Counted from the first letter of the stretch, positions 18,916 through 61,946 are shown. The stretch: 64,000 nt of DNA from an uncultured Gammaproteobacteria bacterium (GCA_964452565.1 CAYVLY010000001.1:386897-450896); one strand, 5' to 3'. Made by a program: numbers and translations. The notes: generated from the letters alone by a model not told the origin.

Positions 18916-20733
18916 CTAAAATGAACACTCTGATGATGATGGCACACCAGCACAACAATATGGATAACTAGACGATGTTCCGCACGATCCTCCACTTACA
19001 TCAGGCCCCTCACCTGGAACAAAGCAATTCTGATATTGATTCTTGATCTGATAATCTCCTGTACCGTCCATTCGTGGAACCTCAGGTATGTAGAAATAGG
19101 TTGTTCCACCATCAACGCTTTCCAAGAAAACTCCGTGATTGATCTCAACTTGAGATGCAACAACGTCTTTTCCTGTTTCTCCAGCATCAGCCCCATCTTC
19201 ATCTAAGCTATTCACGTAAATCCAAAACGCCATCTCGTGAACTGGTACAGGTTCCAGCGAAATATTTGTAGTAGTTAGAGTCGAACTCATCATCACGGAA
19301 TCAAATGTAATATAAACCTCCTGATCTAATGAAATGTCTGATTCAGAAATATCTGGGGAAATACTGTCAATCTCTGGAGCAGTTAGATTTATATCGTCAG
19401 TTGTAGTAAAGCTCCAGGCATAGTCATCCCCTGCCGTTCCATCATCATCTCCATCCAAAGCGTTCCCTGCTGTATCTGTAACTCCATCATAAGGATAGAT
19501 ATCAACCTGCGGTGGCTCCTCGCCTGGAGTTGCCGCAACTGCCGTGACCGAGATTGTCTGACCTCCAGGAAGGCAGTAGATTGTCTCTCCACATGAGTTT
19601 GTTCCGCATGGATCATCTGATGTGAAGGTTACAGTTCTGTACTGATTGCTTATTTCATAAGATCCAGCTGTTGGAGATCCGTCCGCTCCAACTGTTTGAA
19701 TGTTATCGAATCCCGAATCCGACTCCCTTGTTCCAGAAGCACTTGTTGGATCAACTGCTTCACTAAATGTAATCTCAACAACAATATTTCGATCATATGA
19801 GCCAGATGCAGCTGGAGTAACACTATTCACAGTTGGAGGTGTTAGATCGATTTCTGTTCCAACTTCAAACGACCATTCATATCCTCCAGTATCAAGAATT
19901 GTCTCGCCATCTACATTTTCAATATCATCATTTAGATAAACCGTGTAGGAAGTATCATCTGTAGATGAGCCTAGGAGCTCTGTTGGATCAAATACGAATG
20001 TTTTTAAATCATCTGTGAAACTAACATCTACCTCAGTACTTTCAAACGCACCGCTCTCACCATCTGCAGATGCATAGATTAAAATGTTATCTGTATTAAG
20101 CTCAGTGGACGTTGTGTCGTCAGATACATCGTCCGGAGTTCCAGCTGTATCATAGCCTGAGATAATTGCCTCAAGATCTATCTCATCCTTGAATGTTACG
20201 AAGATTTTCGTGTTGCGAGCGATCTCTGATGCATTACGTTCTGGATAGTGATCACTTATTCCCCCTGATCCTAACGAGCCAGAGAGCCGCTCAACGGTCG
20301 GAGTACTTGAATAACTTGTTGAATACGATCCAGTATCACTTATCGCGCCTGTGAGTGCATTGATGATGAACGCTGTTATTGCATATGCGCACAGTGTAAT
20401 GACAAGTCCGATAGTCGCATTTATCAAAATGTTTTTCGCCTTTGTAATTTTGTCTGGATCTCCTTGCGATGTCATCCATGTGAATCCTGCATACAAAACT
20501 AGAACCAAGAAAATCACTCCTAGAATTCCTAAGAACACTTTTATGATATTTCCGATCAGCTCAGGTAGTTCAGCGTCTGCAAGTTCAGATGCCTCAGCTG
20601 CAGTCTCTAAGCCTCCTGCAACATCCTGCGCCATTGCTGGAGCCGCGCTAAAAATAAAAAGCGCCAGCACCAAAAAACCGACACCTACCATGAACATTAT
20701 CGCTTGGGGTAGAAGCGTTTTGTGTTTTGTCAT
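18916..20733 (-). CDS. 605-aa surface protein with the same signal peptide plus TrbC/VirB2-like two-TM anchor module, followed by Big_5-type Ig-like domains and a Cys-rich C-terminus
   Basis: N-terminal IIKVFLGILGVIFLVLVLYAGFTWMTSQGDPDKITKAKNILINATIGLVITLCAY is paralogous to the giant protein N-terminus. Ig-like TPPTVNSVTPAASGSYDRNIVVEITFSEAVDPTS; C-terminal CGTSSSYPYCCAGVPSSSECSF. Confidence 0.8.
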   Translation of the reverse strand: MTKHKTLLPQAIMFMVGVGFLVLALFIFSAAPAMAQDVAGGLETAAEASELADAELPELIGNIIKVFLGILGVIFLVLVLYAGFTWMTSQGDPDKITKAKNILINATIGLVITLCAYAITAFIINALTGAISDTGSYSTSYSSTPTVERLSGSLGSGGISDHYPERNASEIARNTKIFVTFKDEIDLEAIISGYDTAGTPDDVSDDTTSTELNTDNILIYASADGESGAFESTEVDVSFTDDLKTFVFDPTELLGSSTDDTSYTVYLNDDIENVDGETILDTGGYEWSFEVGTEIDLTPPTVNSVTPAASGSYDRNIVVEITFSEAVDPTSASGTRESDSGFDNIQTVGADGSPTAGSYEISNQYRTVTFTSDDPCGTNSCGETIYCLPGGQTISVTAVAATPGEEPPQVDIYPYDGVTDTAGNALDGDDDGTAGDDYAWSFTTTDDINLTAPEIDSISPDISESDISLDQEVYITFDSVMMSSTLTTTNISLEPVPVHEMAFWIYVNSLDEDGADAGETGKDVVASQVEINHGVFLESVDGGTTYFYIPEVPRMDGTGDYQIKNQYQNCFVPGEGPDVSGGSCGTSSSYPYCCAGVPSSSECSF

Positions 20734-21647: not shown

Positions 21648-24600
21648 TCATGACAGTGCGATATCTTCTCCTGGATTCAGACCTTCTGAACAGGTTCCTG
21701 TTGATGTAGAGGAAGATGAGATTGAGTCTGCACCACCTTCAAGAGAGCCAATCTCGGGAGAAGATGAGGTTGTTGGAGTACTTCCTGAACTTGCTGTTGT
21801 AAAACTTATGTCGTCTAGTGTTGTTTCATTACCAAAGTCATCTATGGCCCAAATCTTTGTGTAATATGTGGTTTGCTTGCTAAGGCCTGTGATGGTTGTG
21901 GTTGCGGTTCCTACGGTTGTTAGATCTGTGTCATCTGAATCATCCCATTCAGTAGCACTTGTTCTACCTTGAACATCTGACTGGCTAGTATCAATCCAGA
22001 TTTCATAATGATTAAAGTTTGAGTCTGTGGCTGCAGTCCAGGTAAACGTTGCGGTTGTGGTAGTCGCACTAGAACGTGCGAATGAAGCTAAAGACGCTGG
22101 ATCTACATTGTCTACAGTTATACTTGTTTTAGATGCAGTAGATCCGGCTGCAGTTCCATCATATGGAGTTATTCTAACCTGGGCAGTAGAAAGATCGGCT
22201 GCTGCCTCATCTGTAGCAGATTCCCATACAACAGAGACTGTATTAGCTCCAGATGAACTTGTTATATATCCACTGGCATTACCTACTTGGTAAGTATCAT
22301 CGTTTTCTACTGCAGGATCTCCATAAGTAGCAGATGCCTCTGCTCCTGTCTCAGATACTGTAGCTTTAGTCCATCCTCCGCCAATGTCGTATTCAACAAG
22401 GGCCTCTAGAGTATCGTCATCATCTGCATCATCCATGATGAATGTAATAGTCACATCTCCTGTTCCGTCTGTACCTTGAGTTGCTGTAACTGTTGAGACT
22501 GTTGGGGCAACATTGAAACCCCAGTTGGTATTATTCCCTCCATTTGTTGAACGTGACGGGCTTACAGCATGTGTAATTGTATTACCACCACTCGCATCTG
22601 AATCTGTGACATTAACATAATCTACAGAACTTGTACCTGAAACATTTAAAAGCCAGGTTGTAGCAGGACTAGAACTAGTAATTGTAATCAGGGCTGCATC
22701 ACCACCTGTTAATGTTAGGGTCCCAGATACTGTTGTTGTGGTGCTTGCTGTAAATACAATTGCCTTACTTGCTGTTGTAGAGGTTAAATTATTGAAAGAT
22801 GTAGTTCCAGAAATCGTTGTTGTCTTTGACACGTCGTCCAATGTCACGGTTCCTGATCTGGGCGTAAATGTCCCGGAGTTAGCCCAATCACCTCCCACTG
22901 TAATTGCATAGTTATCACCATCTGAAGTGTCTAGCGTTCCAGCCGTAATTGTGAGTGTATTATTTACATCTATAGCCTCATCTAGTGTATAAGTGCTACC
23001 AGATGAGTTAATTGTTAAATTATTGTATGGAGATAATGCTGAAAGTAATGATGTAGACTCTGTGGTTGCTGCATTATATGTAATTGTTCCACCTGAGTTA
23101 GTCCATGTGTTTGCAGTTTTAACAATATCAGAAGTCGTATCATTAGATTCAATCTGAAGTTCACCACTTGAAATTGTTACAGTATCTCCTCCTGCATCTC
23201 CAAAGGTATTTATATTTGTTCCCGTCTTCATCGTTCCACCACTAATAACTGTATTACCTGCAATGGTCATAGTGTAGTCATTAACATCAAAGGTTCCTGC
23301 AGATACTGTTAGATTTCCCACTATTGATTCATTTGCACCCAACTGAGCTATTGCACCTCCAGTTGTTGCAATTTCCAGGCTTTGATATGCCCAGTCCTGC
23401 ATAGCAACCGTTCCTGTTGATGAAACATATTTTACTGTAGAGCCTGAGTTCAAAGTTGGAACAGTATCATCTAAAGTCAAGGTTTCTGTTCCTCTCCATG
23501 CAAATGTTCCGCCATCTTCAACTACAAAATCACCAGACCAACCACTAACTGTCAAATCATAACCATTTATATTTAATTCCCCTTCTACAACAGTGAGGTC
23601 TTGCTCACTGTCATTCACAGTTAAATCAGATGCTAAATTAACAGTCGGTGTTGAAGTGGTGGTTCCTATTTTTATATGTCCGTCATATAAAGCTTCTGCT
23701 CCAGTTAAATCAAAAGTTTGAGCACTAGAGCCAGCAAGAGTCAATACAGAGTCATTCTTATCATAACTGTACCAATTTGATTCTATTGTTACATCTCCTT
23801 GAGCTTCAATTGTGCCCAATATCGTCCTTCCATCACTCATTAATAAATCACCTTCAACATACAGGGTATCCCCAGAGCCTAAATAAACATAATTAGAACC
23901 TCCACCACATACAACGCCCGTACCACTACAATCAAAGGTAACATCATTGAAAACACCAGAAGTAGCAATTGACGCCTTATCAAAATTCCAAGTGTCAGAA
24001 CCATTACCATCCCACATGAAAGTACCACTGTTATGATTAGAAACACCTCCAGCAGTATGGGTCCAACTGCCTGCAATAAATGTTGTACCAGTTGTTGCAT
24101 TAAAAGTTCCATCTGTAATAATCACATCATTTACATCTAATGTTCCTGTATTTCCATTTAATGTACCTCCAGATATATTTAAATCATCTGCCACCTCCAA
24201 TTCATATGCGCCAACATTCAAACTTCCATCAGTGAGTGTCAAATCTTGTCCTGAACTATTCATTATCAAGTCAGATGCTAAATTAACAGTTGGTGCTGCG
24301 GAACCAGTCCCTATTGTTACATGTGCGTTAAATAAAGCTTCCCCTCCAGTTAAATCAAAAATTTGTGTACCAGAGCTAGAAAAAACTAAAGGAGTGTCAC
24401 TGGTATTATTGCTATACCAATTTGACTCTATTGTTACATTTCCCTGGGCCTCAATTGTACCTGTTATTACTCTTCCATCACTCATTAATAAATCACCTTC
24501 AACATACAGGGTATCCCCAGAGCCTAAATAAACATAATTAGAACCTCCACCACATACAACGCCCGTACCACTACAATCAAAGGTAACATCATTGAAAACA

Positions 24601-25793
24601 CCAGAAGTAGCAATTGACGCCTTATCAAAATTCCAAGTGTCAGAACCATTACCATCCCACATGAAAGTACCACTGTTATGATTAGAAACACCTCCAGCAG
24701 TATGGGTCCAACTGCCTGCAATAAATGTTGTACCAGTTGTTGCATTAAAAGTTCCATCTGTAATAATCACATCATTTACATCTAATGTTCCTGTATTTCC
24801 ATTTAATGTACCTCCAGATATATTTAAATCATCTGCCACCTCCAATTCATATGCGCCAACATTCAAACTTCCATTAGTAATAGTTAAATCTAGCCCACCA
24901 TAATTCAAAATACAATCCGAAACTAAATTAACAGTTGGTGCATTAGTTACAGTTCCAATAGTTGTATGTGAATCCCATTCATCTGTATATCCTGTTAAAT
25001 CAAAAGTTTGTGTCCCTGTTCCAGTAAATGTCAGAGCGGCATCAGTAAGATTAAAGGCATCCCAAGGTCCTACAGTGACATTACCCTGCACCTCTATACC
25101 ACCACCGTTAAACCACCTTCCATCATAAAAAGTCGCATTACCGTTTATATATAGGGTGTCTCCTGAAAGATTAACATAGGAGCCGGAGTCACTGGTGCTA
25201 TCATAAGTAAAATTATTAAACACTCCAGAGGTAGGAATCCCGGCTTTATCAAAATTAAAGGTTTGTCTATAACCAGTATGTTTGACTGTTCCTGAACCTG
25301 CATTCCACACTCCTCCAGCTGTATGTGTCCAGTTTCCAGTAAAAGTGAGCGTCCCTGACGTACCATTAAATGTACCACCTGAAATTGTAACACCTCCGCT
25401 TATTGTAATATCTTGACTTGCTCCAGTGAATGTCCCATCTGCTTGATCATAATGTGATGAACCAATTGTTAAACTTCTAGCCTGTGTAATGGTCCCATCA
25501 TAACCACTATTTATATCAATTCCAGCAACAGACCCTGCAAATGAAGCGTCAATTGTTGAATCATTGTCAGAAGTATTATCAAAAGTAGCAACATCACTTG
25601 CTCCTGGTGGTGAATCGGTAGACCAGTTCAAGCCAGTTGACCAGTTTGTATCAACTCCTCCGCCACCATCCCAAGTGACTACTGCTGCATGAGCTTGATT
25701 GGCACTCCAAAAGGCTGCAAGTAGCACAAATAATGCAATAATAGAAATATTGCAAATCAGCAAGCCAAGCGATCTTGTCTTAATATATTTCAT
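21648..25793 (-). CDS. large secreted/anchored protein with parallel beta-helix-like ~215-aa tandem repeats and C-terminal FN3-like domains
   Basis: Likely start MKYIKTRSLGLLICNISIIALFVLLAAF (signal/anchor) at 25793; the ORF-track start at 25856 lies inside the terminator repeat. Repeats NISGGTLNGNTGTLDVNDVIITDGTFNATTGTTF occur; two copies are nucleotide-identical over ~400 nt. FN3-like TTATFTWTAATDSNFNHYEIWI. Stop TGA at 21648..21650. Confidence 0.8.
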   Translation of the reverse strand: MKYIKTRSLGLLICNISIIALFVLLAAFWSANQAHAAVVTWDGGGGVDTNWSTGLNWSTDSPPGASDVATFDNTSDNDSTIDASFAGSVAGIDINSGYDGTITQARSLTIGSSHYDQADGTFTGASQDITISGGVTISGGTFNGTSGTLTFTGNWTHTAGGVWNAGSGTVKHTGYRQTFNFDKAGIPTSGVFNNFTYDSTSDSGSYVNLSGDTLYINGNATFYDGRWFNGGGIEVQGNVTVGPWDAFNLTDAALTFTGTGTQTFDLTGYTDEWDSHTTIGTVTNAPTVNLVSDCILNYGGLDLTITNGSLNVGAYELEVADDLNISGGTLNGNTGTLDVNDVIITDGTFNATTGTTFIAGSWTHTAGGVSNHNSGTFMWDGNGSDTWNFDKASIATSGVFNDVTFDCSGTGVVCGGGSNYVYLGSGDTLYVEGDLLMSDGRVITGTIEAQGNVTIESNWYSNNTSDTPLVFSSSGTQIFDLTGGEALFNAHVTIGTGSAAPTVNLASDLIMNSSGQDLTLTDGSLNVGAYELEVADDLNISGGTLNGNTGTLDVNDVIITDGTFNATTGTTFIAGSWTHTAGGVSNHNSGTFMWDGNGSDTWNFDKASIATSGVFNDVTFDCSGTGVVCGGGSNYVYLGSGDTLYVEGDLLMSDGRTILGTIEAQGDVTIESNWYSYDKNDSVLTLAGSSAQTFDLTGAEALYDGHIKIGTTTSTPTVNLASDLTVNDSEQDLTVVEGELNINGYDLTVSGWSGDFVVEDGGTFAWRGTETLTLDDTVPTLNSGSTVKYVSSTGTVAMQDWAYQSLEIATTGGAIAQLGANESIVGNLTVSAGTFDVNDYTMTIAGNTVISGGTMKTGTNINTFGDAGGDTVTISSGELQIESNDTTSDIVKTANTWTNSGGTITYNAATTESTSLLSALSPYNNLTINSSGSTYTLDEAIDVNNTLTITAGTLDTSDGDNYAITVGGDWANSGTFTPRSGTVTLDDVSKTTTISGTTSFNNLTSTTASKAIVFTASTTTTVSGTLTLTGGDAALITITSSSPATTWLLNVSGTSSVDYVNVTDSDASGGNTITHAVSPSRSTNGGNNTNWGFNVAPTVSTVTATQGTDGTGDVTITFIMDDADDDDTLEALVEYDIGGGWTKATVSETGAEASATYGDPAVENDDTYQVGNASGYITSSSGANTVSVVWESATDEAAADLSTAQVRITPYDGTAAGSTASKTSITVDNVDPASLASFARSSATTTTATFTWTAATDSNFNHYEIWIDTSQSDVQGRTSATEWDDSDDTDLTTVGTATTTITGLSKQTTYYTKIWAIDDFGNETTLDDISFTTASSGSTPTTSSSPEIGSLEGGADSISSSSTSTGTCSEGLNPGEDIALS
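23836..24876 (-). repeat. near-perfect intragenic tandem duplication (period 645 nt; about 396 nt identical: 23836..24231 = 24481..24876)
   Basis: The identical 77-aa reverse-frame ORFs 23879..24112 and 24524..24757 in the ORF track show the duplication. The identical nucleotide strings were read directly. Confidence 0.85.
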
Positions 25794-25843
25794 GATCTTA
25801 TTGTTTCTATATTGTATCAAGCTACTATTTATAAAAGAAACAT

Positions 25844-25883
25844 ATTGTGGACACAAAAAGCCCCCGATTTCTTAGGGGCTTTT
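25844..25883 (-). terminator. 40-nt repeated double-hairpin terminator module (copy 2), downstream of yqeY
   Basis: Identical to 20803..20842. Confidence 0.6.
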
Positions 25884-26950: not shown

Positions 26951-27237
26951 GTCCCCAGCCAATTTTTCCCAGCTAATCTTAAACTCAGGCCTGTCACGAG
27001 CACGTCCAGGTTTATCCTCGGGCAGGAGAACGGAATTGCATTTTGCGTGACATTTATCCATATAAACAAATGGAGCTCAAAATGCCCGTTCGTATGTACC
27101 GAGGTATACCTGGACAGCGCAGTGAGGCCAAGCAGTTTCTTTTCCCCATTTCTTTGCTGCTTCAAAGAAATGGGGCCAGGGGTTAGGGGCAGGATGCCCC
27201 ATAACAAAACAGGGCCTTGCGGCCTTGTTTTATTTTT
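26951..27237 (+). ncRNA. copy 1 of an about 240-nt structured repeat family (candidate sRNA or MITE) with 3' rho-independent terminator
   Basis: Shares >85% identity with 46210..46489 and a core with 61947..62167. Internal hairpins CCCCATTTCTTTG-N7-CAAAGAAATGGGG and GGGGCA-GGA-TGCCCC. Terminator ACAGGGCC-TTGC-GGCCTTGT plus TTTTATTTTT. Confidence 0.5.
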
Positions 27238-27702: not shown

Positions 27703-27741
27703 TAAAAAGCAAAAGTCCCACCCAGGCGTTCCCAGGTGGGG
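27703..27741 (-). terminator. GC-rich hairpin plus T-run terminator downstream of the high-GC gene 27767..28579
   Basis: Minus strand reads CCCCCACCTGGGAACGCCTGGGTGGGACTTTTGCTTTTT, the same style as the terminators at 36577..36614 and 37757..37810. Confidence 0.5.
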
Positions 27742-27766
27742 GCTCGAAAGTCCGATCGCGAGGAGG

Positions 27767-28579
27767 CTACCTGAGCATCCAGCCGTAGATGTCCTGCATG
27801 CGATCATCGATGTTCTCGTCCCTCAGGCAGACCGCGATGCGCGCTGCCCAGGCCGGAACCATCATGTCGGGACACATCATGACGGCGGCGTCGTAGGGGA
27901 AGAACTCTACCCCCTGGATCACCTCTGCGTCTGAACCGTCACCCCCCTGCGCCGTCTGCACGTTGAGGTGCAGTGTGCCCCGATCAGTGGCCTTGAGGAA
28001 CCTGATGTCCACCTCGACAGCGAGACAGCCGATACCCTGACCTTCCCTGAAATTGGAGAACCACTGGGAACGCTGAGGGTTCATGCGCGGTCCCGGAACC
28101 ATCCAGGTACGCTTGAAGACCCCTTCGTGGTCACCAACCTCAGCATGAAGCTCCTCCATGCCGGTATCCTCGTGGGTCGCGGCGATCTTACCGTAGCCAC
28201 CGGCGGCGTTCCAGCTCATACCGCCCATGCATGGACGATTTTGGTAGGCCAGCGCCACGTAGAGACCACCCTCGACCACGACGTACGGCATAACCACCGT
28301 GCCACCACCACCTGCTTCCCAGTAGACCACAGTGACGAACTGGTCACCGTTTCCAGCGTCGAGATGGCAGAGATGGACCTCGCGGTAGATCTGCTTCTCG
28401 TCGTTGTGGATGTACAGAACGACTCTCTGAACCTGGTCTGAGCCGCCAGACCCCTCGACGCTGTCGACGTGCACCTTCCAGTCCGACTCCACACTCGATG
28501 GGATAGGCCCCAGGACAGCCAAGATGCCCTCAGGCATCAGGCTCTGAAAGCCACTCGCTTGAACCTGCTCTTCACTCAT
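27767..28579 (-). CDS. hypothetical protein encoded in a ~60% GC island (cassette 1)
   Basis: 270-aa ORF with GC content far above the surroundings. RBS GGAGGTG before the ATG; TTGACG-N17-TAAGGT promoter-like element about 60 nt upstream; own terminator. Confidence 0.55.
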   Translation of the reverse strand: MSEEQVQASGFQSLMPEGILAVLGPIPSSVESDWKVHVDSVEGSGGSDQVQRVVLYIHNDEKQIYREVHLCHLDAGNGDQFVTVVYWEAGGGGTVVMPYVVVEGGLYVALAYQNRPCMGGMSWNAAGGYGKIAATHEDTGMEELHAEVGDHEGVFKRTWMVPGPRMNPQRSQWFSNFREGQGIGCLAVEVDIRFLKATDRGTLHLNVQTAQGGDGSDAEVIQGVEFFPYDAAVMMCPDMMVPAWAARIAVCLRDENIDDRMQDIYGWMLR

Positions 28580-28706
28580 AGCACCTCCATGCTAATGCCA
28601 ATCCTTGCCATCAGTAGCAAAGGAAAAGAACCTTAGCGTAATTATCGATTCTCGTCAACCCAAAAACCCGCCAAATCGGCGAGTTTTTTAAACTGTCTAT
28701 ATTCTT

Positions 28707-35228: not shown

Positions 35229-35909
35229 ATGAAAAAATTTGCATTACTTACATTAGCCTCCCTACTACTTGTAGGGTTTGGGTGTACATCAGATTCGTCA
35301 GATGATACAGGCCTTGAAATTCCTGAAGATGAGACTGTTGAGGAATCAACAGAGTCAACTCTAGACTCTGATGGGGACGGGATCACAGACTACGAAGAAA
35401 TTGAAACCTATCAGACAGATCCATTCGATGAAGATACAGACGGTGATGGATATTTGGATGGTGACGAGATTGCTGCAGGATACGATCCAAACGAGCCTGC
35501 AGTAACAACTATAGTAGAAGAGGATGCCAACTTTCAAGATACACAGATAAAAGATGGTCTGACAGTTAATACAGATATTACAGTTGACCTTACAACAACT
35601 ATTGACTGCGGAGCTGAGGTGTCATGTTTTGATGAAAAGTTTGCAGCTTGCGAACCCTCAACAATGACAAGTGATGCAAGTGGGTGGGTAGCGGTTAGTT
35701 ATGAAATTACTGGCCCAGCTGATTACGGGTGCGCAGTAACAATGATATATACAACAAACCCCAATCCGGAATGGCAAGATAAACCGCTTTACTGTGTCTA
35801 CGATAATTCAAAAGACTTTGAATCAGCGATGATGGAAGCTGTCGAAGCAGCGATGGAAACTGACGGATACTGCAGTGGACCACTTAATGACGTATTCCAC
35901 TCTGAGTAA
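35229..35909 (+). CDS. lipoprotein with bacterial TSP3-like Ca-binding repeats (fourth member of the TSP3 family in the window)
   Basis: Signal peptide MKKFALLTLASLLLVGFGC; DSDGDGITDYEEIETYQTDPFDEDTDGDGYLDGDEIAAGYDPNEP. Confidence 0.6.
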   Translation: MKKFALLTLASLLLVGFGCTSDSSDDTGLEIPEDETVEESTESTLDSDGDGITDYEEIETYQTDPFDEDTDGDGYLDGDEIAAGYDPNEPAVTTIVEEDANFQDTQIKDGLTVNTDITVDLTTTIDCGAEVSCFDEKFAACEPSTMTSDASGWVAVSYEITGPADYGCAVTMIYTTNPNPEWQDKPLYCVYDNSKDFESAMMEAVEAAMETDGYCSGPLNDVFHSE

Positions 35910-35920
35910 GTAAATATTAC

Positions 35921-35948
35921 AAAAAGAGCCAATCCCGGCTCTTTTTTG
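35921..35948 (+). terminator. terminator AAGAGCCAATCCCGGCTCTTTTTT; near-identical copy at 36611..36636
   Basis: Hairpin GAGCC-N6-GGCTC plus T6. Confidence 0.6.
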
Positions 35949-35959
35949 GTTTACAGGGC

Positions 35960-35988
35960 TTGACAATGCAGTTTTTTTATGCTAAATT
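35960..35988 (+). promoter_or_regulatory. near-consensus sigma70 promoter of high-GC cassette 2 (TTGACA-N17-TAAATT, preceded by TGC)
   Basis: TTGACA at 35960..35965, 17-nt spacer, TAAATT at 35983..35988. The ORF-track start of the 198-aa ORF (TTG at 35960) is this -35 box. Confidence 0.55.
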
Positions 35989-36034
35989 TCTTTGTTCATT
36001 CAACCAGGCCCAGGGGCGCAAACCAGAGAACAAC

Positions 36035-36556
36035 ATGCCTGACAGAGTGGAAAAACTCGCCAGTCTAATGGGAATGAAAGGAACCGTAGTTGATGGGAAG
36101 GAAATCTTCGCCTGTCGGCTCGGTTCAGAAGGCGACACCCTCGTCATCGCGTACTACGACGACGCGCGGCACATCTGGAAAATCCGGTTCTTGCCGGGAA
36201 TCCCCATCGTACCTGCGCAAGCGCTGGTGCACGGTGGCTACAGGTGGAACGAGCGAGGCTATGGATATAAGTTCTACAACTGGCCCAAAACCTCAATCCA
36301 GATCGAAGATGAACCCCACGAAGTTGGTCAACGCGAATTTATGTGTTCGATTGGTGCTTTCACAGCTGAACGAACCGTGGATGCCTTCGTGGCGCTCCAA
36401 CTCGTCTTCCGCGTAAGCTTCCTTGCGCCATACGATCGCCCCCTGACAGACACACAGGTCAGAGAAGCAATGCATCTAATGACGATCGTGGCCAATGACT
36501 GTCATTTTGTCGCCCCACCTGGGTATTACCCTGGCGACGAAGACCTCGAAAGCTAA
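36035..36556 (+). CDS. hypothetical protein in ~60% GC island (cassette 2), 173 aa from first ATG downstream of the promoter
   Basis: In-frame ATG at 36035 (M26 of the track ORF 35960..36556); GC-rich codon usage unlike the host genes. Confidence 0.5.
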   Translation: MPDRVEKLASLMGMKGTVVDGKEIFACRLGSEGDTLVIAYYDDARHIWKIRFLPGIPIVPAQALVHGGYRWNERGYGYKFYNWPKTSIQIEDEPHEVGQREFMCSIGAFTAERTVDAFVALQLVFRVSFLAPYDRPLTDTQVREAMHLMTIVANDCHFVAPPGYYPGDEDLES

Positions 36557-36576
36557 ACCGTACCTCACCCCCACCC

Positions 36577-36614
36577 CGGACCCCCGCGTCCTTGCGTGGG
36601 GGTTCTGCTTTTTT
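36577..36614 (+). terminator. GC-hairpin terminator of cassette 2 (shared module TCACCCCCACCCC...CGTGGGGGTTCTGCTTTTTT)
   Basis: ACCCCCGCG-TCCTTG-CGTGGGGGT hairpin (one G.U pair) plus TCTGCTTTTTT. About 80% identical to 37757..37810. Confidence 0.65.
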
Positions 36615-36682
36615 GAGCCAATACCGGCTCTTTTTTGACCAAACTACCAACGTTACACGTTGGTAGTTTTTGCATAATTATA

Positions 36683-36711
36683 TTGACAATTTGGCTAATT
36701 TATGCTATATT
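36683..36711 (+). promoter_or_regulatory. near-consensus sigma70 promoter of high-GC cassette 3 (TTGACA-N17-TATATT)
   Basis: TTGACA 36683..36688, 17-nt spacer ATTTGGCTAATTTATGC, TATATT 36706..36711. Similar to the cassette 2 promoter (TTGACAAT...TTTATGCTAWAT). Confidence 0.55.
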
Positions 36712-36778
36712 TTTTTGTTTCTAGCGCAACTCCGCGCAGAACATATCGTGCATCCCGCACGTGAAGAGGGAGACAAGA

Positions 36779-37747
36779 ATGACTCACAGGCAAATCAAGG
36801 TGTGGCGCCAGCCCACCTCTGTGAGCGTCCAGCTCGAAGCCACCCGCAGCGCCGAGCACGAATTGAGACAGCTCATCATAGCCATACAGCAAGCGCTGGG
36901 GGTCCAGGACTGGCACAACTTCGGACGCATGCTCCAGACCTGCTGCAACGTCTTCATGCCAGAACGCCACACCCCGATGGGCTTCGGCGTACGCAGACGT
37001 TCACCAGCCCAGATCCTCAAGCGCAAGATGGAGTGGGTGGACATCGAAGAGTTCAAGGCCTTCGGCCTCAAGATCGAAGACGAAACCTTCACAGCCACCC
37101 CCCGCGAACCCGTGACCATCACGATCGGACGCACCTTCACTGGGGGTCACGAGTTCAACAGCGATGGACACAGCATCGTCTTCACGGTCGCAAGCGACTC
37201 CGAGGTCGAGATCATCGCTGAGGTCCAGGACAGAGTCGGGAGCGTCGATAGAGGCCGCCACATGGGCAGCTACCACTTGCAGCTTGGCGAAACCACCTAC
37301 ACATCTGTGCTCTACGTCCAGGCCTGGACTCAGAGACACTGGGCCTTCAGCAAGGGCAGCAAGGAACGCCTGGGAGACCGCCTGCAGGAACCGCCCTACG
37401 ACTGCTTCCGCCGAGATGCTCCGATCTATCAGGTCGAACCGCTCGAAGACGAGGAGCTCGTGGTCTACGAGAGCTCTGGGGCCCACAATGTAGGTCTGGA
37501 AGTGCCCTTCTCGCGCACGGCACCGAGACACCCGGATCGTCAGGTCTTCGCCTCGGTCGGACCGTTCTCGTTGGCACTGCGCAAGGGCGAACGCCGCGGA
37601 CGCAGCCCAGCTCGCGATCGCATCGTGGTCTTCCGCGATGACAAACTGCCCATCGTCCCACCCGAAGTTGACGATGAGGAATGCGACGATAGCGGCTGGG
37701 ACTGCGACGAATTCGACTTCGCTGACCGGTACGACGCAGAGTACTAG
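36779..37747 (+). CDS. hypothetical protein in ~60% GC island (cassette 3), 322 aa
   Basis: RBS GAGGGAGA 6 nt before the ATG at 36779; GC-rich; antisense ORFs in this stretch are treated as GC artefacts. Confidence 0.55.
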   Translation: MTHRQIKVWRQPTSVSVQLEATRSAEHELRQLIIAIQQALGVQDWHNFGRMLQTCCNVFMPERHTPMGFGVRRRSPAQILKRKMEWVDIEEFKAFGLKIEDETFTATPREPVTITIGRTFTGGHEFNSDGHSIVFTVASDSEVEIIAEVQDRVGSVDRGRHMGSYHLQLGETTYTSVLYVQAWTQRHWAFSKGSKERLGDRLQEPPYDCFRRDAPIYQVEPLEDEELVVYESSGAHNVGLEVPFSRTAPRHPDRQVFASVGPFSLALRKGERRGRSPARDRIVVFRDDKLPIVPPEVDDEECDDSGWDCDEFDFADRYDAEY

Positions 37748-37756
37748 CCCCACCAC

Positions 37757-37810
37757 TCACCCCCACCCAAGGACCCCCTCGTCCTCGGCGTGGGGGTTCT
37801 GCTTTTTTGT
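37757..37810 (+). terminator. GC-hairpin terminator of cassette 3 (second copy of shared module)
   Basis: TCACCCCCACCCAAGGACCCCCTCGTCCTCGGCGTGGGGGTTCTGCTTTTTTG. Confidence 0.65.
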
Positions 37811-37817
37811 TCAAACC

Positions 37818-37878
37818 TGGGGCCCACCACGAGCCTGCCTGCCAGCAGGCAGGGGTTTCAGGGGGATGAAGTGCCCCC
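37818..37878 (+). repeat. internally deleted fragment of the about 240-nt structured repeat family (retains both termini)
   Basis: GGGCCCACCACGAGC (5' end as in copy 3), then palindrome CCTGCCTGCCAGCAGGCAGG, then GGGGGATGAAGTGCCCCC (3' hairpin as in copy 3, GGGGGACGGAGTGCCCCC). Confidence 0.5.
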
Positions 37879-37954
37879 AATGAAACACGTTTCACACAAC
37901 AACCCTTGACACACCTAACAAAATCAGATTTTTCGTGCATGATAAAATATAAGT

Positions 37955-39055
37955 ATGACTCAAGGAGATGAGAGCTTGGCGTATTTGATGGCCTTAAATG
38001 AATTTCCACAGTTTGGTCCGCGCAGGATGCAGCGGTTGTTTAAGTATTTTGATTCAGCCCAGTCAATCTTCGAATCAGGCACATCAGATCTTCAAAGTGC
38101 AGGGATCTCTGAGAATATTGCAAAAGAGTTCATTGAATTCCGTAAATCAATCAATCCGCAGGAACTACTTGAGCTTATTCGATCGAATCAGGTCTCGACC
38201 TTATCAATCTTCGACCCTAACTACCCCACCCTACTCAAAGAGATATTTGATCCTCCGACATTGCTATATGTAAAAGGTAAGCTTCCAGATCTTACTGATC
38301 GAAAACTTCTTGGAATCGTTGGTTCGCGCAAAGTAAGTCCATATGGCATGCAGGCTGCAAAAGACCTAACTCGAAACATAGCAAGGGCTGGAATCATTAC
38401 TGTAAGCGGGCTTGCGTATGGAGTTGATCAAATCGTACATCGATCAACAATCGACGCAGGCGGATCAACGATCGCAGTTCTAGGCTTTGGCATTCTGCAT
38501 GAATCAACGCCGCGTGAACAAAAGATGCAAAGATACATAGTTGAGAATGGCGGATGTTTAATCAGTGAATTCCCGCTGATGATGCATGGTGCCAAACAAA
38601 ACTTCCCAGTCCGCAACCGAATCATCTCAGGGCTAAGCCACGGGACCCTTGTGGTTGAGGCGGCGATAAAATCCGGCTCACTAATAACAGCCCGATCGGC
38701 AACTGATCAAAACCGTGAGGTTTTTGCTGTTCCAGGTCCGATTAACTCTCCAGCTTCAGAAGGTACAAATAATCTAATCAAAAATGGCGCACATACGGTC
38801 ACTTCGATCGAAGATATACTTGAACCACTTGAAATCGACCGAATCCGATCAAACTCAATCAAAAAAACCACCCCAAAGGGCGACACTCCGCAGGAAGATA
38901 AAATCCTGTCGATCTTATCAAAACAACCAGTCCACATCGACGACATCACCCGCAAATCCAACCTTCCTCCCCACACCGTCGCAAGCGTAATTTCGATGCT
39001 TGAATTGAAAGGACTTGCCCAAAACGTCGGAGCGCAATACTATACGTACGTATGA
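37955..39055 (+). CDS. dprA: DNA processing protein DprA (Smf)
   Basis: Rossmann-like core GIVGSRKVSPYGMQAAKDLTRNIARAGIITVSGLAYGVDQIVH; 366 aa with C-terminal winged-helix-like tail. Confidence 0.85.
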   Translation: MTQGDESLAYLMALNEFPQFGPRRMQRLFKYFDSAQSIFESGTSDLQSAGISENIAKEFIEFRKSINPQELLELIRSNQVSTLSIFDPNYPTLLKEIFDPPTLLYVKGKLPDLTDRKLLGIVGSRKVSPYGMQAAKDLTRNIARAGIITVSGLAYGVDQIVHRSTIDAGGSTIAVLGFGILHESTPREQKMQRYIVENGGCLISEFPLMMHGAKQNFPVRNRIISGLSHGTLVVEAAIKSGSLITARSATDQNREVFAVPGPINSPASEGTNNLIKNGAHTVTSIEDILEPLEIDRIRSNSIKKTTPKGDTPQEDKILSILSKQPVHIDDITRKSNLPPHTVASVISMLELKGLAQNVGAQYYTYV

Positions 39056-42794: not shown

Positions 42795-44636
42795 CTATTT
42801 TACTTCTGACCGATCTATCCCGCCCCTTGTTGGCGCTGTGCCTGGCTTTGTTGTCTTTGCCTGCTTCCCGGCTCCAACACCAAGCTTACTGGCATCAACA
42901 GCAGTATCACCAAACTTAAATCCAGTCTTCATTGACTTTCTTTCTGCCAGCTCTTCTGGAGTCTGAACCTCTGGTGCTTCTGGTGCCGGCGTCTCTGCTG
43001 GCGCAGCCGCTTCTGGCCCTCTAGTCTTTAACAGTTCCGCTTCTGCCTTAATTTCTCTATCTAGTTGCTTTTTGCGCTCTGCTATTTCTTCAAGTCCAGC
43101 CTCGGCCTCGTCCAATCGTGCTTTGAGTGCATCGTGATCCGCTTTACTAAGCTCTGTATTTTCTAGCTGCTCCTCGAGACCTTTAATCGTTTCTGTTAAT
43201 GATGCTTCATCCTCAACAATCTTATTAAGCCTTTCAGAAAATTCATCTTGTTTTCCCGAGCCTTCAAGAGCAGCAATCCTATCACTAAACTGCTGTTGTT
43301 CATTCTTCTTCTCCTTAGCCTTTTCTTTCTTTAACGTCATCTTACCCATTTTCTTAATCTGTTTCCTACGTTCTTCATCTTCCTTCGCAAGCTTCTCATC
43401 GAGCTTCTTAATAGCCTCACCCGGCTCTCCAAACTTTGCTTCTTCCTGTCCTGTGATTTGTTTTAAGAATGACCAAAGACCAAGCGCCATTCGTGGAATC
43501 GTGGGAAGTGATCCAAGAATTGGCTTTCTACCTGCTATAAACTGACCCAACACACCAACTGTACCCATAGATGCAGCGGCAGCAGCCCATCCAACCTTTT
43601 TGACTTTACTATATTCTTCTTCATCAACCTCTTCCTTTGCAGCTTGCTCCTGCTGTTCCATACCAGCACCAAACTCTTGCCCCGCACCCCGTCTAGCTGC
43701 TTCGTTTATTTCCGTTCCTGGAACTTGCCCGCGATCGCCACCTCTATCACGACCTAAGGCATCAGCTGCTGCACCAGCAGCAGCACCAACTGCTGCTTCA
43801 ACGCCAGCACCAGCCTGGCTATCATCTGGTGGTTCTATTCCACCATCAGCCCCAGGTGCTTCAATGACATCAATAGCATTATCTAACGCCTGATCCCAGC
43901 GCTGCCTTGTCTCGCGATTTGATTCTTCTACTTCTGGGGGCAGTCCTGCGCCACCGCCAGTTAACTCAAATGTTTTGCTTTTTACCAACTTTATTACGTT
44001 TGCCAAATCCTCATAATCCACGCTGTCATCTAATTGATCGACATTCTCGAGCATTAGCAACATTTGAATTGCATCCTTTGTATCTTCATCCGCTCTTCTC
44101 TCCATCTCACGCAGAGTGTCCAAAAAATCTGGATTTTTAACAGCTTCCAGTACGGACTGGTAATATTCTGTATTATCACCTGGTGGTTCAACGTCTGCGT
44201 CTGGTGGTTCAACGTCTGCGTCTGGTGGTTCAACGTCTGCGTCTGGTGGTTGAATCTCTTGCCCTGTACCAGTGTCATCAGCAGGCGGCTCAACATCAGC
44301 AGGCGGCTCAACATCAGCAGGCGGCTCAACATCAGCAGGCGGCTCAACTCCACCTTCTCGATCCATACGATCAGCAACAGCATCGCCAAGATCGCCGATT
44401 GCCTCAGCCTCAGCACCTGCTCTAGCTTGTGCGCGCAACTCTTCCTCAGCAGCAAAGCGGGCCGCAGCTTCCTCATCTAGTTCAACACGAGCCGCCTCCT
44501 CAGCCGCAGCCTCTGCAGCAAGCTGCTCTGGAGATACTTCTGGCTGCTCTGCAGCTGCCTCAGGAGTGCCTTCAACTCCCTCTTGTTGACCTTCTTTTTT
44601 GTCTGGTTCATTTACCATATGTATACATAATATCAA
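42795..44636 (-). CDS. acidic low-complexity coiled-coil protein with tandem VEPPAD / DADVEPP repeats and one predicted TM segment
   Basis: 613-aa ORF; probable start MVNEPDKK at 44618. 4x VEPPAD (18-nt period, 44272..44345) and 3-4x DADVEPP (21-nt period, 44188..44270). Lys/Glu-rich coiled-coil C-terminal half. Confidence 0.55.
   Translation of the reverse strand: MILCIHMVNEPDKKEGQQEGVEGTPEAAAEQPEVSPEQLAAEAAAEEAARVELDEEAAARFAAEEELRAQARAGAEAEAIGDLGDAVADRMDREGGVEPPADVEPPADVEPPADVEPPADDTGTGQEIQPPDADVEPPDADVEPPDADVEPPGDNTEYYQSVLEAVKNPDFLDTLREMERRADEDTKDAIQMLLMLENVDQLDDSVDYEDLANVIKLVKSKTFELTGGGAGLPPEVEESNRETRQRWDQALDNAIDVIEAPGADGGIEPPDDSQAGAGVEAAVGAAAGAAADALGRDRGGDRGQVPGTEINEAARRGAGQEFGAGMEQQEQAAKEEVDEEEYSKVKKVGWAAAAASMGTVGVLGQFIAGRKPILGSLPTIPRMALGLWSFLKQITGQEEAKFGEPGEAIKKLDEKLAKEDEERRKQIKKMGKMTLKKEKAKEKKNEQQQFSDRIAALEGSGKQDEFSERLNKIVEDEASLTETIKGLEEQLENTELSKADHDALKARLDEAEAGLEEIAERKKQLDREIKAEAELLKTRGPEAAAPAETPAPEAPEVQTPEELAERKSMKTGFKFGDTAVDASKLGVGAGKQAKTTKPGTAPTRGGIDRSEVK
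44188..44345 (-). repeat. in-frame tandem coding repeats (21-nt x about 4 and 18-nt x 4)
   Basis: TGGTGGTTCAACGTCTGCGTC units and ATCAGCAGGCGGCTCAAC units, read directly. Confidence 0.9.
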
Positions 44637-46209: not shown

Positions 46210-46489
46210 GTCCCCAGCCAACCTTCTAACCTCGGGCCTGTCACGAGCACGTTCATGCTCATCCCCTGGCAGGAAGACGGAATAGCATTTTGAGTCCAAT
46301 TTATCCATATATACAAATTGGATCGCCAAAATGCCCGTCTGTATGCCTGGGGTATGCATGGACAGCGCAGTGAGGCCAAGCAGTTTCTTTTCCCCATTTC
46401 TTTGCTGCTACAAAGAAATGGGGCCAAGGGTTAGGGGTTAGGGGCAGGATGCCCCAATAACAAAAGACCGGCGATCTGCCGGTCTTTTG
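46210..46489 (+). ncRNA. copy 2 of the about 240-nt structured repeat family with 3' terminator
   Basis: Near-identical to copy 1, including the GTCCCCAGCC start. Hairpins CCCCATTTCTTTG-N7-CAAAGAAATGGGG and TCCAATTT...AAATTGGA. Terminator GACCGGC-GATCT-GCCGGTC plus TTTT. Confidence 0.5.
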
Positions 46490-61934: not shown

Positions 61935-61946
61935 AAGCTCTTTCTT

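What the first reader, a model, noticed from the sequence alone, without database searches (positions are those of the whole stretch)
35950..37815. High-GC cassettes 2 and 3: two unrelated ~60% GC ORFs, each flanked by a duplicated promoter module and a duplicated GC-hairpin terminator module, immediately upstream of dprA
The ORFs 36035-36556 and 36779-37747 are GC-rich islands. Each is preceded by a near-consensus promoter (TTGACAAT-N-TTTATGCTAAAT at 35960 and TTGACAAT-N-TTTATGCTATAT at 36683). Each is followed by an ~50-nt module TCACCCCCACCC..GACCCCC..CGTCCT..GGCGTGGGGGTTCTGCTTTTTTG (36564-36614 and 37757-37810). The spacer between them also holds two further terminators, including a second copy of AGAGCCAATmCCGGCTCTTTTTT (35921 and 36611). 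Repeated boundary modules around different cargo ORFs resemble a cassette-array arrangement with promoter plus terminator units rather than attC sites. A terminus fragment of the ~240-nt repeat sits at the right border. The array lies next to the competence gene dprA. This is a candidate integration hotspot or a new cassette-type accessory system of unknown function, possibly toxin/immunity or host-interaction genes.
Basis: seen in the sequence. Interest (0 to 1): 0.8.

Follow-up and report, generated by a model that had tools for sequence, protein, structure and literature searches.

The report
GC-rich gene cassettes beside dprA
Between two housekeeping genes of a tiny candidate-phyla-radiation (CPR) bacterium lies a strain-variable slot holding unusually GC-rich genes of unknown function, each with its own copy of the same strong promoter and terminator; it matters because these look like mobile cassettes with no visible mobility gene, and nothing yet explains why they stay so GC-rich.

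Summary
ORF2 (36035-36556) and ORF3 (36779-37747) are real protein-coding GC3 outliers (0.60 and 0.77, against 0.39±0.06 for 47 window genes). Each sits behind a near-consensus promoter and ahead of a duplicated hairpin terminator. Only the "240-nt repeat fragment" claim fails.

The cassette reading is supported by comparison. Four related Uhrbacteria genomes carry the same terminator-A/promoter and terminator-B modules between pth and dprA, with four unrelated GC-rich cargos in all. Two strains whose flanks are 99.7% identical differ completely in this island. The reduced identity running into dprA points to allelic replacement by homologous recombination.

ORF3 belongs to an uncharacterised family of about 300 aa (about 30 clusters). 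It has a confident AlphaFold model but no specific structural or Pfam match. The family carries a conserved 5'UTR hairpin motif and is GC-richer than its host in all 12 loci examined. In other genomes the unit is bracketed by direct repeats, either terminator copies or tRNA-Pro 3' ends, and it often lies near recombination or SOS genes. No integrase was found.

Best reading: integrase-less, self-expressed single-gene cassettes in a replacement-type hotspot. Their function and the cause of the persistent GC excess remain unknown. ORF2 is an orphan.

The parts
35921..35948 (.). Terminator A: the hairpin AAAAAGAGCC-aatccc-GGCTCTTTTTT. It is symmetric, so it can act in both directions. It closes the upstream TSP3-repeat lipoprotein gene (35229-35909) and forms the left edge of the junction module.
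   Evidence: The hairpin is conserved in L001, L003 and L004, with changes in the stem that keep pairing (GAGCC/GGCTC, TAGCC/GGCTA).
35960..35988 (+). Promoter P1: TTGACA, 17-nt spacer, TAAATT, with a TG extension.
   Evidence: The spacer resembles the promoter of L003.
36035..36556 (+). ORF2, 173 aa. A GC-rich orphan cargo gene (GC 0.536, GC3 0.60).
   Evidence: The only database match is to itself (P0002). No Pfam, PHROG, NCBIfam or PADLOC hit.
36564..36615 (+). Terminator B, copy 1: a C-rich arm CTCACCCCCACCC, then the hairpin GGACCCCCGCG-loop-CGTGGGGGTTC, then a T-run.
36614..36637 (+). Terminator A' (second copy of terminator A), fused directly to the T-run of terminator B.
36640..36672 (+). 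A third hairpin with a T-run: CCAAACTACCAACG-ttaca-CGTTGGTAGTTTTTG.
   Evidence: Read directly.
36683..36711 (+). Promoter P2: TTGACA, 17-nt spacer, TATATT, with a TG extension. It matches 11 of 12 consensus positions.
   Evidence: Orthologous to the promoters of L001 and L004.
36712..36778 (+). 5'UTR of ORF3. Hairpin 1 is GCGCAACTCCGCGC (36724-36737). Hairpin 2 is CGTGCATCCCGCACG (36747-36761). The Shine-Dalgarno sequence GAGGGAG lies at 36766-36772.
   Evidence: The motif CGTGCAYCCCGCAYGTGAAGAGGGA is conserved in front of family members in 6 genomes. Both hairpins are predicted in most of the six sequences. No Rfam match.
36779..37747 (+). ORF3, 322 aa. A member of an uncharacterised CPR protein family of about 300 aa (GC 0.61, GC3 0.77).
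   Evidence: AlphaFold model with pLDDT 88. No specific structural match.
37756..37810 (+). Terminator B, copy 2.
   Evidence: It marks the right breakpoint of the strain-level replacement seen between L001 and L004.
37811..37895 (+). An 85-nt hairpin-rich insert, absent from relative L003. It includes the 20-nt palindrome CCTGCCTGCCAGCAGGCAGG, which also occurs at 59389. It is not a fragment of the 240-nt repeat.
37955..39055 (+). dprA, the conserved right flank of the hotspot.
27703..28658 (-). It has its own promoter TTGACG-17-TAAGGT (28658-28630) and a hairpin terminator CCCCCACCTGGG-loop-CCTGGGTGGG (about 27717-27742). This is a second hotspot, next to hisS.
   Evidence: Syntenic GC-rich homologue in L003 at 3-449(-) with E=3e-11. 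A further GC-rich ORF lies at the same position in L004 (1-239(-)); it is apparently frameshifted and its homology is not established.

Best explanation
The region between the pth/TSP3-lipoprotein genes and dprA is a replacement-type, strain-variable gene-cassette hotspot of a Candidatus Uhrbacteria (CPR/Patescibacteria) genome.

It holds two tandem single-gene transcription units. Each consists of a junction module, a GC-rich cargo ORF and terminator B. The junction module is a hairpin terminator followed by a near-consensus sigma-70 promoter and a T-rich start of the transcript.

Shown: the modules are duplicated within this genome and conserved in relatives, while the cargo between them differs. 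Whole islands are swapped between near-identical strains by homologous recombination whose tract runs into dprA.

Inferred: new units are added by recombination at the hairpin junction modules, which leaves direct repeats on both sides of each unit. This could be a Campbell-type or site-specific event, using a recombinase encoded elsewhere or the host's own recombination system. The same signature is seen around family members in other CPR genomes: a perfect 64-nt terminator repeat in one, and repeated tRNA-Pro 3' ends in another.

ORF3 is one member of an uncharacterised CPR family of about 300 aa that travels with its own 5'UTR hairpin motif and a C-rich/G-rich terminator. ORF2 is an orphan cargo in a second unit.

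The units are probably very strongly transcribed, because they share a promoter class with the tRNA and rpsU genes.

Their GC excess is a property of the cassettes and not of any host genome examined. I take it to reflect circulation in a cassette pool whose composition is kept away from the host equilibrium by a force not yet identified.

Protein function is unknown. The acidic C-terminal tail ending in Tyr or Phe, and the frequent neighbourhood of dprA, recG, recO, recA and lexA-dinB, make a role at the DNA recombination/repair interface the leading guess.
For: Modules and composition.

Same modules, different cargo, in four related genomes. These are the window, L001, L003 (the metagenome contig L009 is identical to it) and L004. 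The cargos are unrelated in all six reading frames.

Strain-level replacement. L001 and L004 are 99.7% identical over 5.8 kb on the left and 99.8% further to the right. The island itself is completely different. The left breakpoint is 7 nt after the pth stop codon, and the right breakpoint is at the start of terminator B. About 900 bp of 90-95% identity follow inside dprA. This is the pattern described for replacement flexible genomic islands (PMC4033161) and for minimal mobile elements (PMC3787668).

The ORF3 family. There are 30 representative hits, in different genomic contexts. The gene is GC-richer than its surroundings in all 12 loci, by 0.08-0.22 in GC, with GC3 of 0.53-0.89.

Direct repeats bracketing units. 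L021 has a 64-nt repeat at 100% identity. L020 has a 131-nt module repeat that includes the tRNA-Pro 3' end, plus two further tRNA-3'-like 38-mers. In the window, a 23-nt repeat (terminator A) and a roughly 52-nt repeat (terminator B) bracket the units.

Expression. Three of the six intergenic consensus promoters in the window drive the three GC-rich ORFs.
Against: No integrase, transposase or other recombinase was found among the window ORFs of 150 aa or more that were scanned, nor in any locus gene table.

The repeats in the window are short and coincide with functional terminators. A simple tandem duplication of regulatory DNA, or conservation for function, could produce them.

Two syntenic pairs (window/L001 next to dprA; L016/L019 between recG and thyA) suggest long residence. 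For the window/L001 pair, synonymous sites are saturated. Long residence fits in-place maintenance of GC better than recent import.

No donor reservoir was found. The terminator pattern found nothing beyond this clade in the genome, metagenome and viral collections, apart from the L003-identical contig L009. Protein-derived patterns found nothing in viral contigs.

Only four genomes inform on the pth-dprA locus.
Confidence: 0.62

Rival explanations
1. These are native, vertically inherited, fast-evolving genes. Their GC-rich synonymous sites are held by selection or a local bias, for example for a U-poor, nuclease-resistant, long-lived mRNA, or by biased gene conversion. The shared promoter and terminator are ordinary conserved regulatory DNA. 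Cargo differences between genomes reflect loss and occasional gain, not a cassette mechanism.
For: Synonymous sites are saturated between the window and L001 for ORF3, as for all flanking genes, yet GC3 stays at 0.77 and 0.86. A second syntenic pair, L016/L019, also keeps GC3 at 0.84 and 0.89. The GC excess appears in hosts ranging from 39% to 55% GC. T3 is only 0.06-0.18 in most cargos. The hisS-adjacent gene has a syntenic homologue in L003.
Against: Two strains with 99.7% identical flanks carry completely different cargo. Units are bracketed by direct repeats, including a perfect 64-mer and tRNA 3' ends. The family occupies many different genomic positions. GC1 and the Arg/Lys ratio are shifted as well, so the bias is not confined to synonymous sites. 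The r-protein gene rpsU, behind the same promoter class, has GC3 of 0.34, so high expression alone does not explain the bias.
Confidence: 0.22
2. These are recent horizontal acquisitions taken directly from a high-GC organism, for example the bacterial host of this presumed epibiont, through DNA uptake. They have not yet drifted to the recipient's composition.
For: GC3, the dominance of C at third positions and the high Arg/(Arg+Lys) ratio resemble genes of a genome of about 62-68% GC. The hotspot lies next to the competence gene dprA.
Against: Searches of 5.8 billion and of 1.84 billion proteins found only about 30 relatives of ORF3, none for ORF2 and none for cassette 1. All 12 family loci examined lie in DNA of lower GC than the gene, and those with enough flanking genes show ordinary small-genome housekeeping contexts. 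The promoter, 5'UTR and terminator are AT-rich and conserved among CPR genomes. Synonymous saturation between syntenic copies excludes a single recent event.
Confidence: 0.08
3. This is an integron-like, site-specific cassette system. The terminator hairpins would act as attC-like folded recombination sites, recognised by a tyrosine recombinase encoded elsewhere in the genome.
For: Imperfect palindromic modules sit at the 3' end of each cassette. The units form a tandem array bracketed by direct repeats. In L020 the units sit at a tRNA-Pro 3' end, with repeated tRNA-end fragments, which is the classic footprint of a tyrosine integrase.
Against: No integrase was found in the 64-kb window or in the loci fetched (and the gene tables). 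No GTTRRRY-type core was seen when reading the modules. Each cassette has its own promoter. The repeats differ between genomes, as expected if whichever local terminator is present gets used. The one exchange event that could be reconstructed used homologous flanks.
Confidence: 0.12
4. The GC-rich stretches are structured non-coding RNAs, or artefacts of chimeric assembly.
For: High-GC islands in AT-richer genomes can be RNA genes. Long antisense ORFs are also present.
Against: The GC1 > GC2 << GC3 pattern is frame-specific. The ORF3 family aligns as protein over its full length with E=3e-71, and gives a confident fold (pLDDT 88). The sense frame scores 252 bits, against at most 126 bits for the other frames. 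The antisense ORFs lie in the codon-aligned frame, which a low A3 content leaves open by default (my reading of the coordinates). The same junctions occur in independent assemblies from NCBI, Logan and JGI. No Rfam hit.
Confidence: 0.02

Closest known systems
Minimal mobile elements of Neisseria (Saunders & Snyder 2002; Snyder 2007, as summarised in PMC3787668) and replacement flexible genomic islands (PMC4033161)
   Same: Different whole-gene content sits between the same two conserved flanking genes in close relatives. No mobility gene is present. Exchange is by homologous recombination in the flanks, leaving a tell-tale stretch of raised divergence at the island border. The organisms carry competence genes.
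   Different: Here each cargo is a single ORF placed between conserved copies of one promoter module and one terminator module. The units can be stacked in tandem. All cargos share a strong GC excess over the host. One cargo family recurs at unrelated sites in other genomes, bracketed by direct repeats.
Integron gene-cassette arrays
   Same: There is a tandem array of single-ORF units. An imperfect palindromic element lies at the 3' end of each unit. The cargo is unrelated and mostly orphan. The array is variable between strains.
   Different: There is no intI gene and no attI site. No attC core motifs were seen. Every unit carries its own strong promoter and a true intrinsic terminator, whereas integron cassettes are read from a common Pc promoter. 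The boundary modules are genome-specific.
Small integrative islands at tRNA 3' ends (tyrosine-integrase genomic islands and their integrase-less satellites)
   Same: In L020 two GC-rich units follow tRNA-Pro. Each is delimited by a repeated copy of the tRNA 3' end.
   Different: The units are only about 1.1-1.3 kb, with one gene and no integrase. In the window no tRNA is involved, and the repeats are terminator hairpins.
Horizontally acquired compositional islands in general
   Same: There are sharp composition boundaries at the gene ends, atypical codon and amino-acid usage, and orphan genes.
   Different: The deviation is towards higher GC and persists in syntenic copies. For the window/L001 pair synonymous sites are saturated. 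The same family is GC-richer than its host in all 12 loci examined. Ordinary drift towards host composition should have erased this.

Membership tests
Integron gene cassettes | An adjacent intI tyrosine recombinase gene and an attI site | tested here: not met
   Pfam scans of the window ORFs of 150 aa or more found only housekeeping genes. None appears in the gene tables of the related loci. The rest of the 709-kb genome was not seen.
Integron gene cassettes | attC sites with conserved R''/L''-L'/R' cores (GTTRRRY) | tested here: not met
   The terminator modules are hairpins followed by T-runs. No GTTRRRY core was seen on reading them by eye; no formal motif scan was run.
Integron gene cassettes | Promoterless cassettes expressed from a common Pc promoter | tested here: not met
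   Each unit has its own near-consensus promoter and its own terminator.
Minimal mobile element / replacement flexible genomic island | Different gene content between the same conserved flanking genes in close relatives | tested here: met
   The pth-dprA interval holds ORF2 plus ORF3 in the window, an ORF3 homologue in L001, a 152-aa ORF in L003 and a 293-aa ORF in L004. L001 and L004 are 99.7% identical outside the island.
Minimal mobile element / replacement flexible genomic island | Exchange by homologous recombination in the flanks, seen as a mosaic or raised-divergence border | tested here: met
   To the right of the island, identity is 90-95% for about 900 bp inside dprA and then about 100%. 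To the left it is 99.7% right up to the pth stop codon.
Minimal mobile element / replacement flexible genomic island | No associated mobility genes | tested here: met
   None in the window or in the flanks of the loci (and the gene tables).
tRNA-targeting integrative island | Direct repeat of a tRNA 3' end at the island borders, plus an integrase | tested here: inconclusive
   The repeat criterion is met in L020 at tRNA-Pro. It is not met in the window, where the nearest tRNAs are at 48-50 kb. No integrase was seen anywhere.
Intrinsic (Rho-independent) terminator | A GC-rich hairpin followed directly by a U-run | tested here: met
   Terminator B has 11-12 base pairs, folds at -20 to -27 kcal/mol and is followed by T5-7. 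It is conserved in 5 copies. Termination itself was not measured.
Sigma-70 promoter | -35 TTGACA and -10 TATAAT hexamers with 17±1 spacing | tested here: met
   10/12 and 11/12 matches, each with a TG extension. Promoter activity was not measured.
Known anti-phage defence, toxin-antitoxin or polymorphic toxin systems | A recognisable domain or a multi-gene architecture | tested here: not met
   No PADLOC, Pfam, PHROG or NCBIfam hits for any cargo. The units are monocistronic.
SSB-like proteins / proteins carrying an SSB-type C-terminal tip | An OB fold plus an acidic C-terminal tail ending in a hydrophobic or aromatic residue | tested here: inconclusive
Rfam cis-regulatory RNA (for the ORF3 5'UTR) | A match to a curated covariance model | tested here: not met
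   No hit at gathering score. Only chance-level hits at E of 0.8 or more.

The most novel reading that the evidence does not exclude
CPR bacteria harbour a previously unrecognised class of integrase-less, self-expressed, single-gene cassettes. The cassettes insert at terminator or tRNA-3' hairpins and stack into arrays. Their coding sequences are kept far above host GC, by 0.25-0.45 in GC3, over evolutionary time. The cause would be either a biased process acting specifically on them, or the fact that their true reservoir is another, unsampled, GC-rich replicon or partner organism. The most widespread cargo, the ORF3 family, would be a new-fold protein that plugs into the recombination machinery (DprA, RecO, RecG, RecA) through an SSB-like acidic C-terminal tip.
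Probability: 0.22. Interest if true: 0.85.

Novelty: new variant of a known kind. Interest (0 to 1): 0.66.

Why it matters
CPR/Patescibacteria have tiny, streamlined genomes, and how they gain and exchange accessory genes is poorly understood.

This locus shows a concrete and repeatable architecture for accessory genes in these organisms. Strongly promoted, terminator-insulated single-gene units sit in a slot that is swapped between near-identical strains. The same gene family turns up in other CPR genomes, bracketed by direct repeats and without any mobility gene.

The persistent GC excess is an anomaly that standard models of drift towards host composition do not predict. It holds in hosts from 39% to 55% GC, and in the window/L001 pair it survives saturation of synonymous sites. 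Explaining it could reveal one of three things: a hidden gene reservoir such as a partner organism or an extrachromosomal element, a gene-specific GC-biasing process, or selection on mRNA properties.

The ORF3 family now has a confident predicted structure with no specific match. It has a conserved 5'UTR motif and a non-random neighbourhood of recombination genes. That makes it a tractable target for experiments.

Tried and rejected
- Pfam, PHROGs, NCBIfam and PADLOC searches on ORF2, ORF3, cassette 1 and the L003, L004, L018 and L020 cargos gave nothing.
- Sequence and profile searches against the PDB gave only chance-level hits, the best being the Ku80 C-terminal region at E=0.08.
- AlphaFold with a 2-sequence alignment failed (pLDDT 36). 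It succeeded with 31 sequences.
- A strict terminator pattern found nothing in the genome, metagenome or viral collections. The looser pattern found only L009, which is identical to L003, plus chance hits in high-GC contigs.
- Viral searches with protein-derived patterns were negative. The 31-sequence alignment was too diverse for the search for related loci.
- I tested whether the other cargos are ORF3 read in another frame or on the other strand. They are not.
- I considered overlapping antisense genes. The antisense ORFs always lie in the codon-aligned frame, which a low A3 content keeps open, so no extra gene is needed.
- I considered translational (expression-level) codon selection. NNG is preferred over NNA, and rpsU, behind the same promoter class, has a low GC3.
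- I considered sequestration of the Shine-Dalgarno sequence by the 5'UTR. It is not predicted in most minimum-free-energy folds.
- The 240-nt repeat fragment at the right border is a chance-level 11-mer match.
- The literature searches found no prior description of GC-rich gene islands in CPR.
Full report
**1. What is in the sequence**

The window is about 44% GC. Between the end of a TSP3-repeat lipoprotein gene (35229-35909) and dprA (37955-39055; Pfam DNA_processg_A, E=1e-72) lie two ORFs whose GC rises to 0.55 and 0.60-0.65 in 300-nt windows.

ORF2 (36035-36556, 173 aa) has GC 0.536 and GC1/2/3 of 0.61/0.40/0.60. ORF3 (36779-37747, 322 aa) has GC 0.61 and GC1/2/3 of 0.63/0.43/0.77. Neighbouring genes have GC3 of 0.31-0.44. 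Against 47 gene proxies of the window (GC3 mean 0.387, sd 0.059), the z-scores are +3.4 for ORF2 and +6.4 for ORF3. No other gene in the 64 kb behaves like this.

Both ORFs sit behind the two best sigma-70-like sites of the region: TTGACA-17-TAAATT at 35960 and TTGACA-17-TATATT at 36683, each with a TG extension.

In the whole window only eight TTGAC[AG]-N16-18-TANNNT sites exist. The six intergenic ones precede ORF2, ORF3, cassette 1, rpsU and two tRNAs.

Both ORFs are followed by the same terminator module. It has a C-rich arm CTCACCCCCACCC, an 11-12 bp hairpin and a T-run. A 22-mer within it is identical at 36594 and 37788, with 0 matches expected by chance.

A second hairpin terminator (AGAGCCAATMCCGGCTCTTTTTTG) occurs at 35925 and 36614. 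A third hairpin with a T-run lies at 36640-36672.

An independent Logan assembly is 100% identical through ORF2, terminator B and terminator A'.

The one sub-claim that fails is the 'fragment of the 240-nt repeat' at the right border. It is an 11-nt match with E about 1.

**2. These are protein-coding genes, not RNAs or artefacts**

The frame-specific GC pattern supports coding. So does a full-length protein alignment of ORF3 to a homologue at E=3e-71, and a sense-frame BLAST score twice that of any other frame. A confident AlphaFold model was obtained once 31 family sequences were supplied (pLDDT 88, pTM 0.84). Rfam finds nothing. The long antisense ORFs always lie in the codon-aligned frame, which a low A3 content leaves open.

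**3. Comparative genomics of the locus**

The only word-index homologue of ORF3 (P0001, 46% identity) lies in another Patescibacteria MAG at the same place: hisS, lepB, lytR, der, pth, [gene], dprA, folC, topA. It too is a GC island, at 0.65 with GC3 0.86, in roughly 42% GC DNA.

Using DprA as an anchor brought in three further relatives. In L003 (Ca. Uhrbacteria SI037_bin110) and in L004, the interval upstream of dprA again carries one GC-rich ORF. L003 has a 152-aa ORF with GC3 0.80. L004 has a 293-aa ORF with GC3 0.90. Each lies between the same terminator-A/promoter module and the same terminator B.

These ORFs are unrelated to ORF2, to ORF3 and to each other in any of the six frames. So five units share their boundaries and hold four unrelated cargos.

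The hisS-adjacent site is a second slot of this kind. The cassette 1 gene has a syntenic GC-rich homologue in L003 (E=3e-11). A further GC-rich ORF lies at the same position in L004. It appears frameshifted, and its homology is not established.

**4. How the content changes**

L001 and L004 are essentially the same strain. They are 99.7% identical over 5.8 kb on the left and 99.8% further to the right. Yet everything from 7 nt after the pth stop codon to the first base of terminator B differs. L001 has no lipoprotein gene and carries the ORF3 homologue. L004 has the lipoprotein gene and an unrelated cargo.

To the right of the island, identity is only 90-95% for about 900 bp inside dprA before returning to about 100%. 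This is the signature of allelic replacement by homologous recombination in the flanks. It has been described for replacement flexible genomic islands (PMC4033161) and for Neisseria minimal mobile elements (PMC3787668). This step is shown.

**5. The ORF3 family and the cassette signature elsewhere**

A full HMMER search of 1.84 billion representatives with the two-sequence profile found 30 proteins. Nearly all are about 300 aa.

They share an N-terminal QIKAWR-like motif and a conserved C-terminal core: LG.R, PL.GE.LVVY, HPD..VFASVGPFSLAL and D.I.VF.D..LPI. About two-thirds of the full-length members have an acidic tail ending in Y or F.

I looked at 12 loci. The genomic positions differ:
- beside dprA (window, L001);
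- recG-[gene]-thyA-radA (L016, L019);
- recO-[gene]-ruvX (L017);
- near lexA-dinB (L018, L021);
- 2 kb from recA (L020);
- beside unrelated genes (L011, L015, L022);
- one contig, L014, is too short to judge.

In every case the gene is GC-richer than its surroundings. GC is 0.50-0.67 against 0.39-0.56, and GC3 is 0.53-0.89 against 0.26-0.64 for neighbouring genes of 100 aa or more.

Six of these genes are preceded by the same 5'UTR: a variable GC hairpin, then the conserved motif CGTGCAYCCCGCAYGTGAAGAGGGA. Several also end in a terminator of the CACCCC...GTGGGG type.

Three genomes show insertion footprints:
- In L021 the unit is bracketed by a perfect 64-nt direct repeat, which is a terminator.
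- In L020 two tandem GC-rich units follow tRNA-Pro: an unrelated 230-aa orphan and the family gene. Each is preceded by a 131-nt repeat containing the tRNA 3' end, a terminator and a promoter. Each is followed by a tRNA-3'-like 38-mer.
- In the window, terminator A brackets the ORF2 unit and terminator B brackets the ORF3 unit.

No integrase or transposase was seen in the window or in any locus gene table. Insertion at the hairpin modules is therefore inferred from the repeats, not shown.

**6. The GC anomaly**

Between the window and L001, identical amino acids use the same codon only slightly more often than codon usage predicts. This holds for ORF3 (0.55 observed against 0.52 expected) and for all flanking genes, so synonymous sites are saturated. 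A gene imported once before that split should have reached the host composition.

Either the copies were imported independently from a GC-rich cassette pool, or a force keeps them GC-rich where they are. The first is plausible given how fast the locus turns over.

The bias is general. C3 is 0.4-0.58 and G exceeds A at third positions. Arg/(Arg+Lys) is 0.63-0.84, against 0.31-0.49 in the host genes that contain Arg. It is not the pattern of translational selection. It is also not shared by rpsU, which sits behind the same promoter class.

No donor was found. There are no relatives outside these CPR-like contexts, and nothing in viral contigs. I could not resolve the cause.

**7. Function**

Function is unknown. 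In six of nine independent contexts, recombination, repair or SOS genes lie within 5 kb, and three are immediate neighbours (dprA, recG, recO). With such genes at roughly 2-3% of a small genome, I estimate a chance probability of the order of 0.005. This is a rough, post hoc estimate.

From my own knowledge, RecO and RecG, and in Bacillus DprA, are clients of the acidic C-terminal tip of SSB. The family's acidic tail ending in Y or F is reminiscent of that tip. This is a lead, not a test. No OB fold was detected.

**8. Verdict**

The closest known concepts are minimal mobile elements and replacement flexible islands, whose defining features are met here. Integron membership fails on all three of its features that were tested.

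What is new is threefold. First, the unit architecture: a duplicated terminator-promoter junction module around single ORFs. Second, the same family recurs at other sites with direct-repeat footprints and no mobility gene. Third, the GC excess persists.

The literature searches found no prior description.

Noticed in passing
window 26980-27189, 46227-46437, 61939-62151: Three intergenic copies of a repeat of about 240 nt. Each folds into a long imperfect hairpin (dG -110 to -120 kcal/mol for about 250 nt). There is no Rfam hit at gathering score. Copy 2 lies between relA and parB, and copy 3 between map and adk. It is a candidate MITE or structured RNA.
   Followed up: partly
L020 3652-6086 (ENA ERZ15232945): tRNA-Pro is followed by two tandem GC-rich single-gene units: a 230-aa orphan containing an HEMGH motif, and an ORF3-family gene. 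Each is preceded by a 131-nt repeat made of the tRNA 3' end, a terminator and a promoter. Each is followed by a tRNA-3'-like 38-mer. This is an integration footprint without an integrase.
   Followed up: partly
L021 4863-4926 and 5965-6028 (GCA_041666805.1): A perfect 64-nt direct repeat, which is a hairpin terminator, brackets the ORF3-family gene. A hicAB pair, a DEAD helicase and lexA-dinB lie downstream.
   Followed up: partly
L018 4246-5511 (-); L022 1223-2128: Further GC-rich genes sit near family members. L018 has a 421-aa orphan with GC3 0.82. L022 carries a second family paralogue (P0023), separated from P0015 by one host-like gene.
   Followed up: partly
L004 10343-13088 vs L001 9507-9525: A second strain-level difference between the 99.7%-identical genomes: a 2.7-kb insertion between folC and topA carrying two genes of normal GC (469 aa and 343 aa).
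   Followed up: no
L004 about 50-75 (minus-strand ORF starting at 239): The hisS-adjacent GC-rich ORF in L004 appears frameshifted, probably in a run of C. This could be a pseudogene, a sequencing error or a phase-variable tract.
   Followed up: no
window 37834-37853 and 59389-59408: The 20-nt palindrome CCTGCCTGCCAGCAGGCAGG occurs twice. One copy lies inside the 85-nt insert between terminator B and dprA, an insert that relative L003 lacks.
   Followed up: partly
window 34565, 54424, 56509, 61074: A family of CTCCCCC-loop-GGGGGAG hairpins (30-39 nt, 4-5 copies) lies at gene ends. It is another shared terminator-like module in this genome.
   Followed up: no
window 8863-18837 (-), 21648-25856 (-), 42795-44636 (-): Giant ORFs of 3324 aa and 1402 aa carry internal repeats, including a 300-nt duplication at 23613/24258. 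A 613-aa ORF carries 18- and 21-nt tandem repeats and raised GC (0.51-0.55). These are probably surface proteins. A T4SS-pilin-domain protein lies at 18916-20733.
   Followed up: no
window 36564-36605, 37756-37800, and the L001, L003 and L004 terminators: The conserved C-rich arm (CTCACCCCCRCCC) upstream of the terminator hairpin can pair with the same G-run. This gives two alternative hairpin registers. It may be regulatory, or it may be a recognition site.
   Followed up: partly
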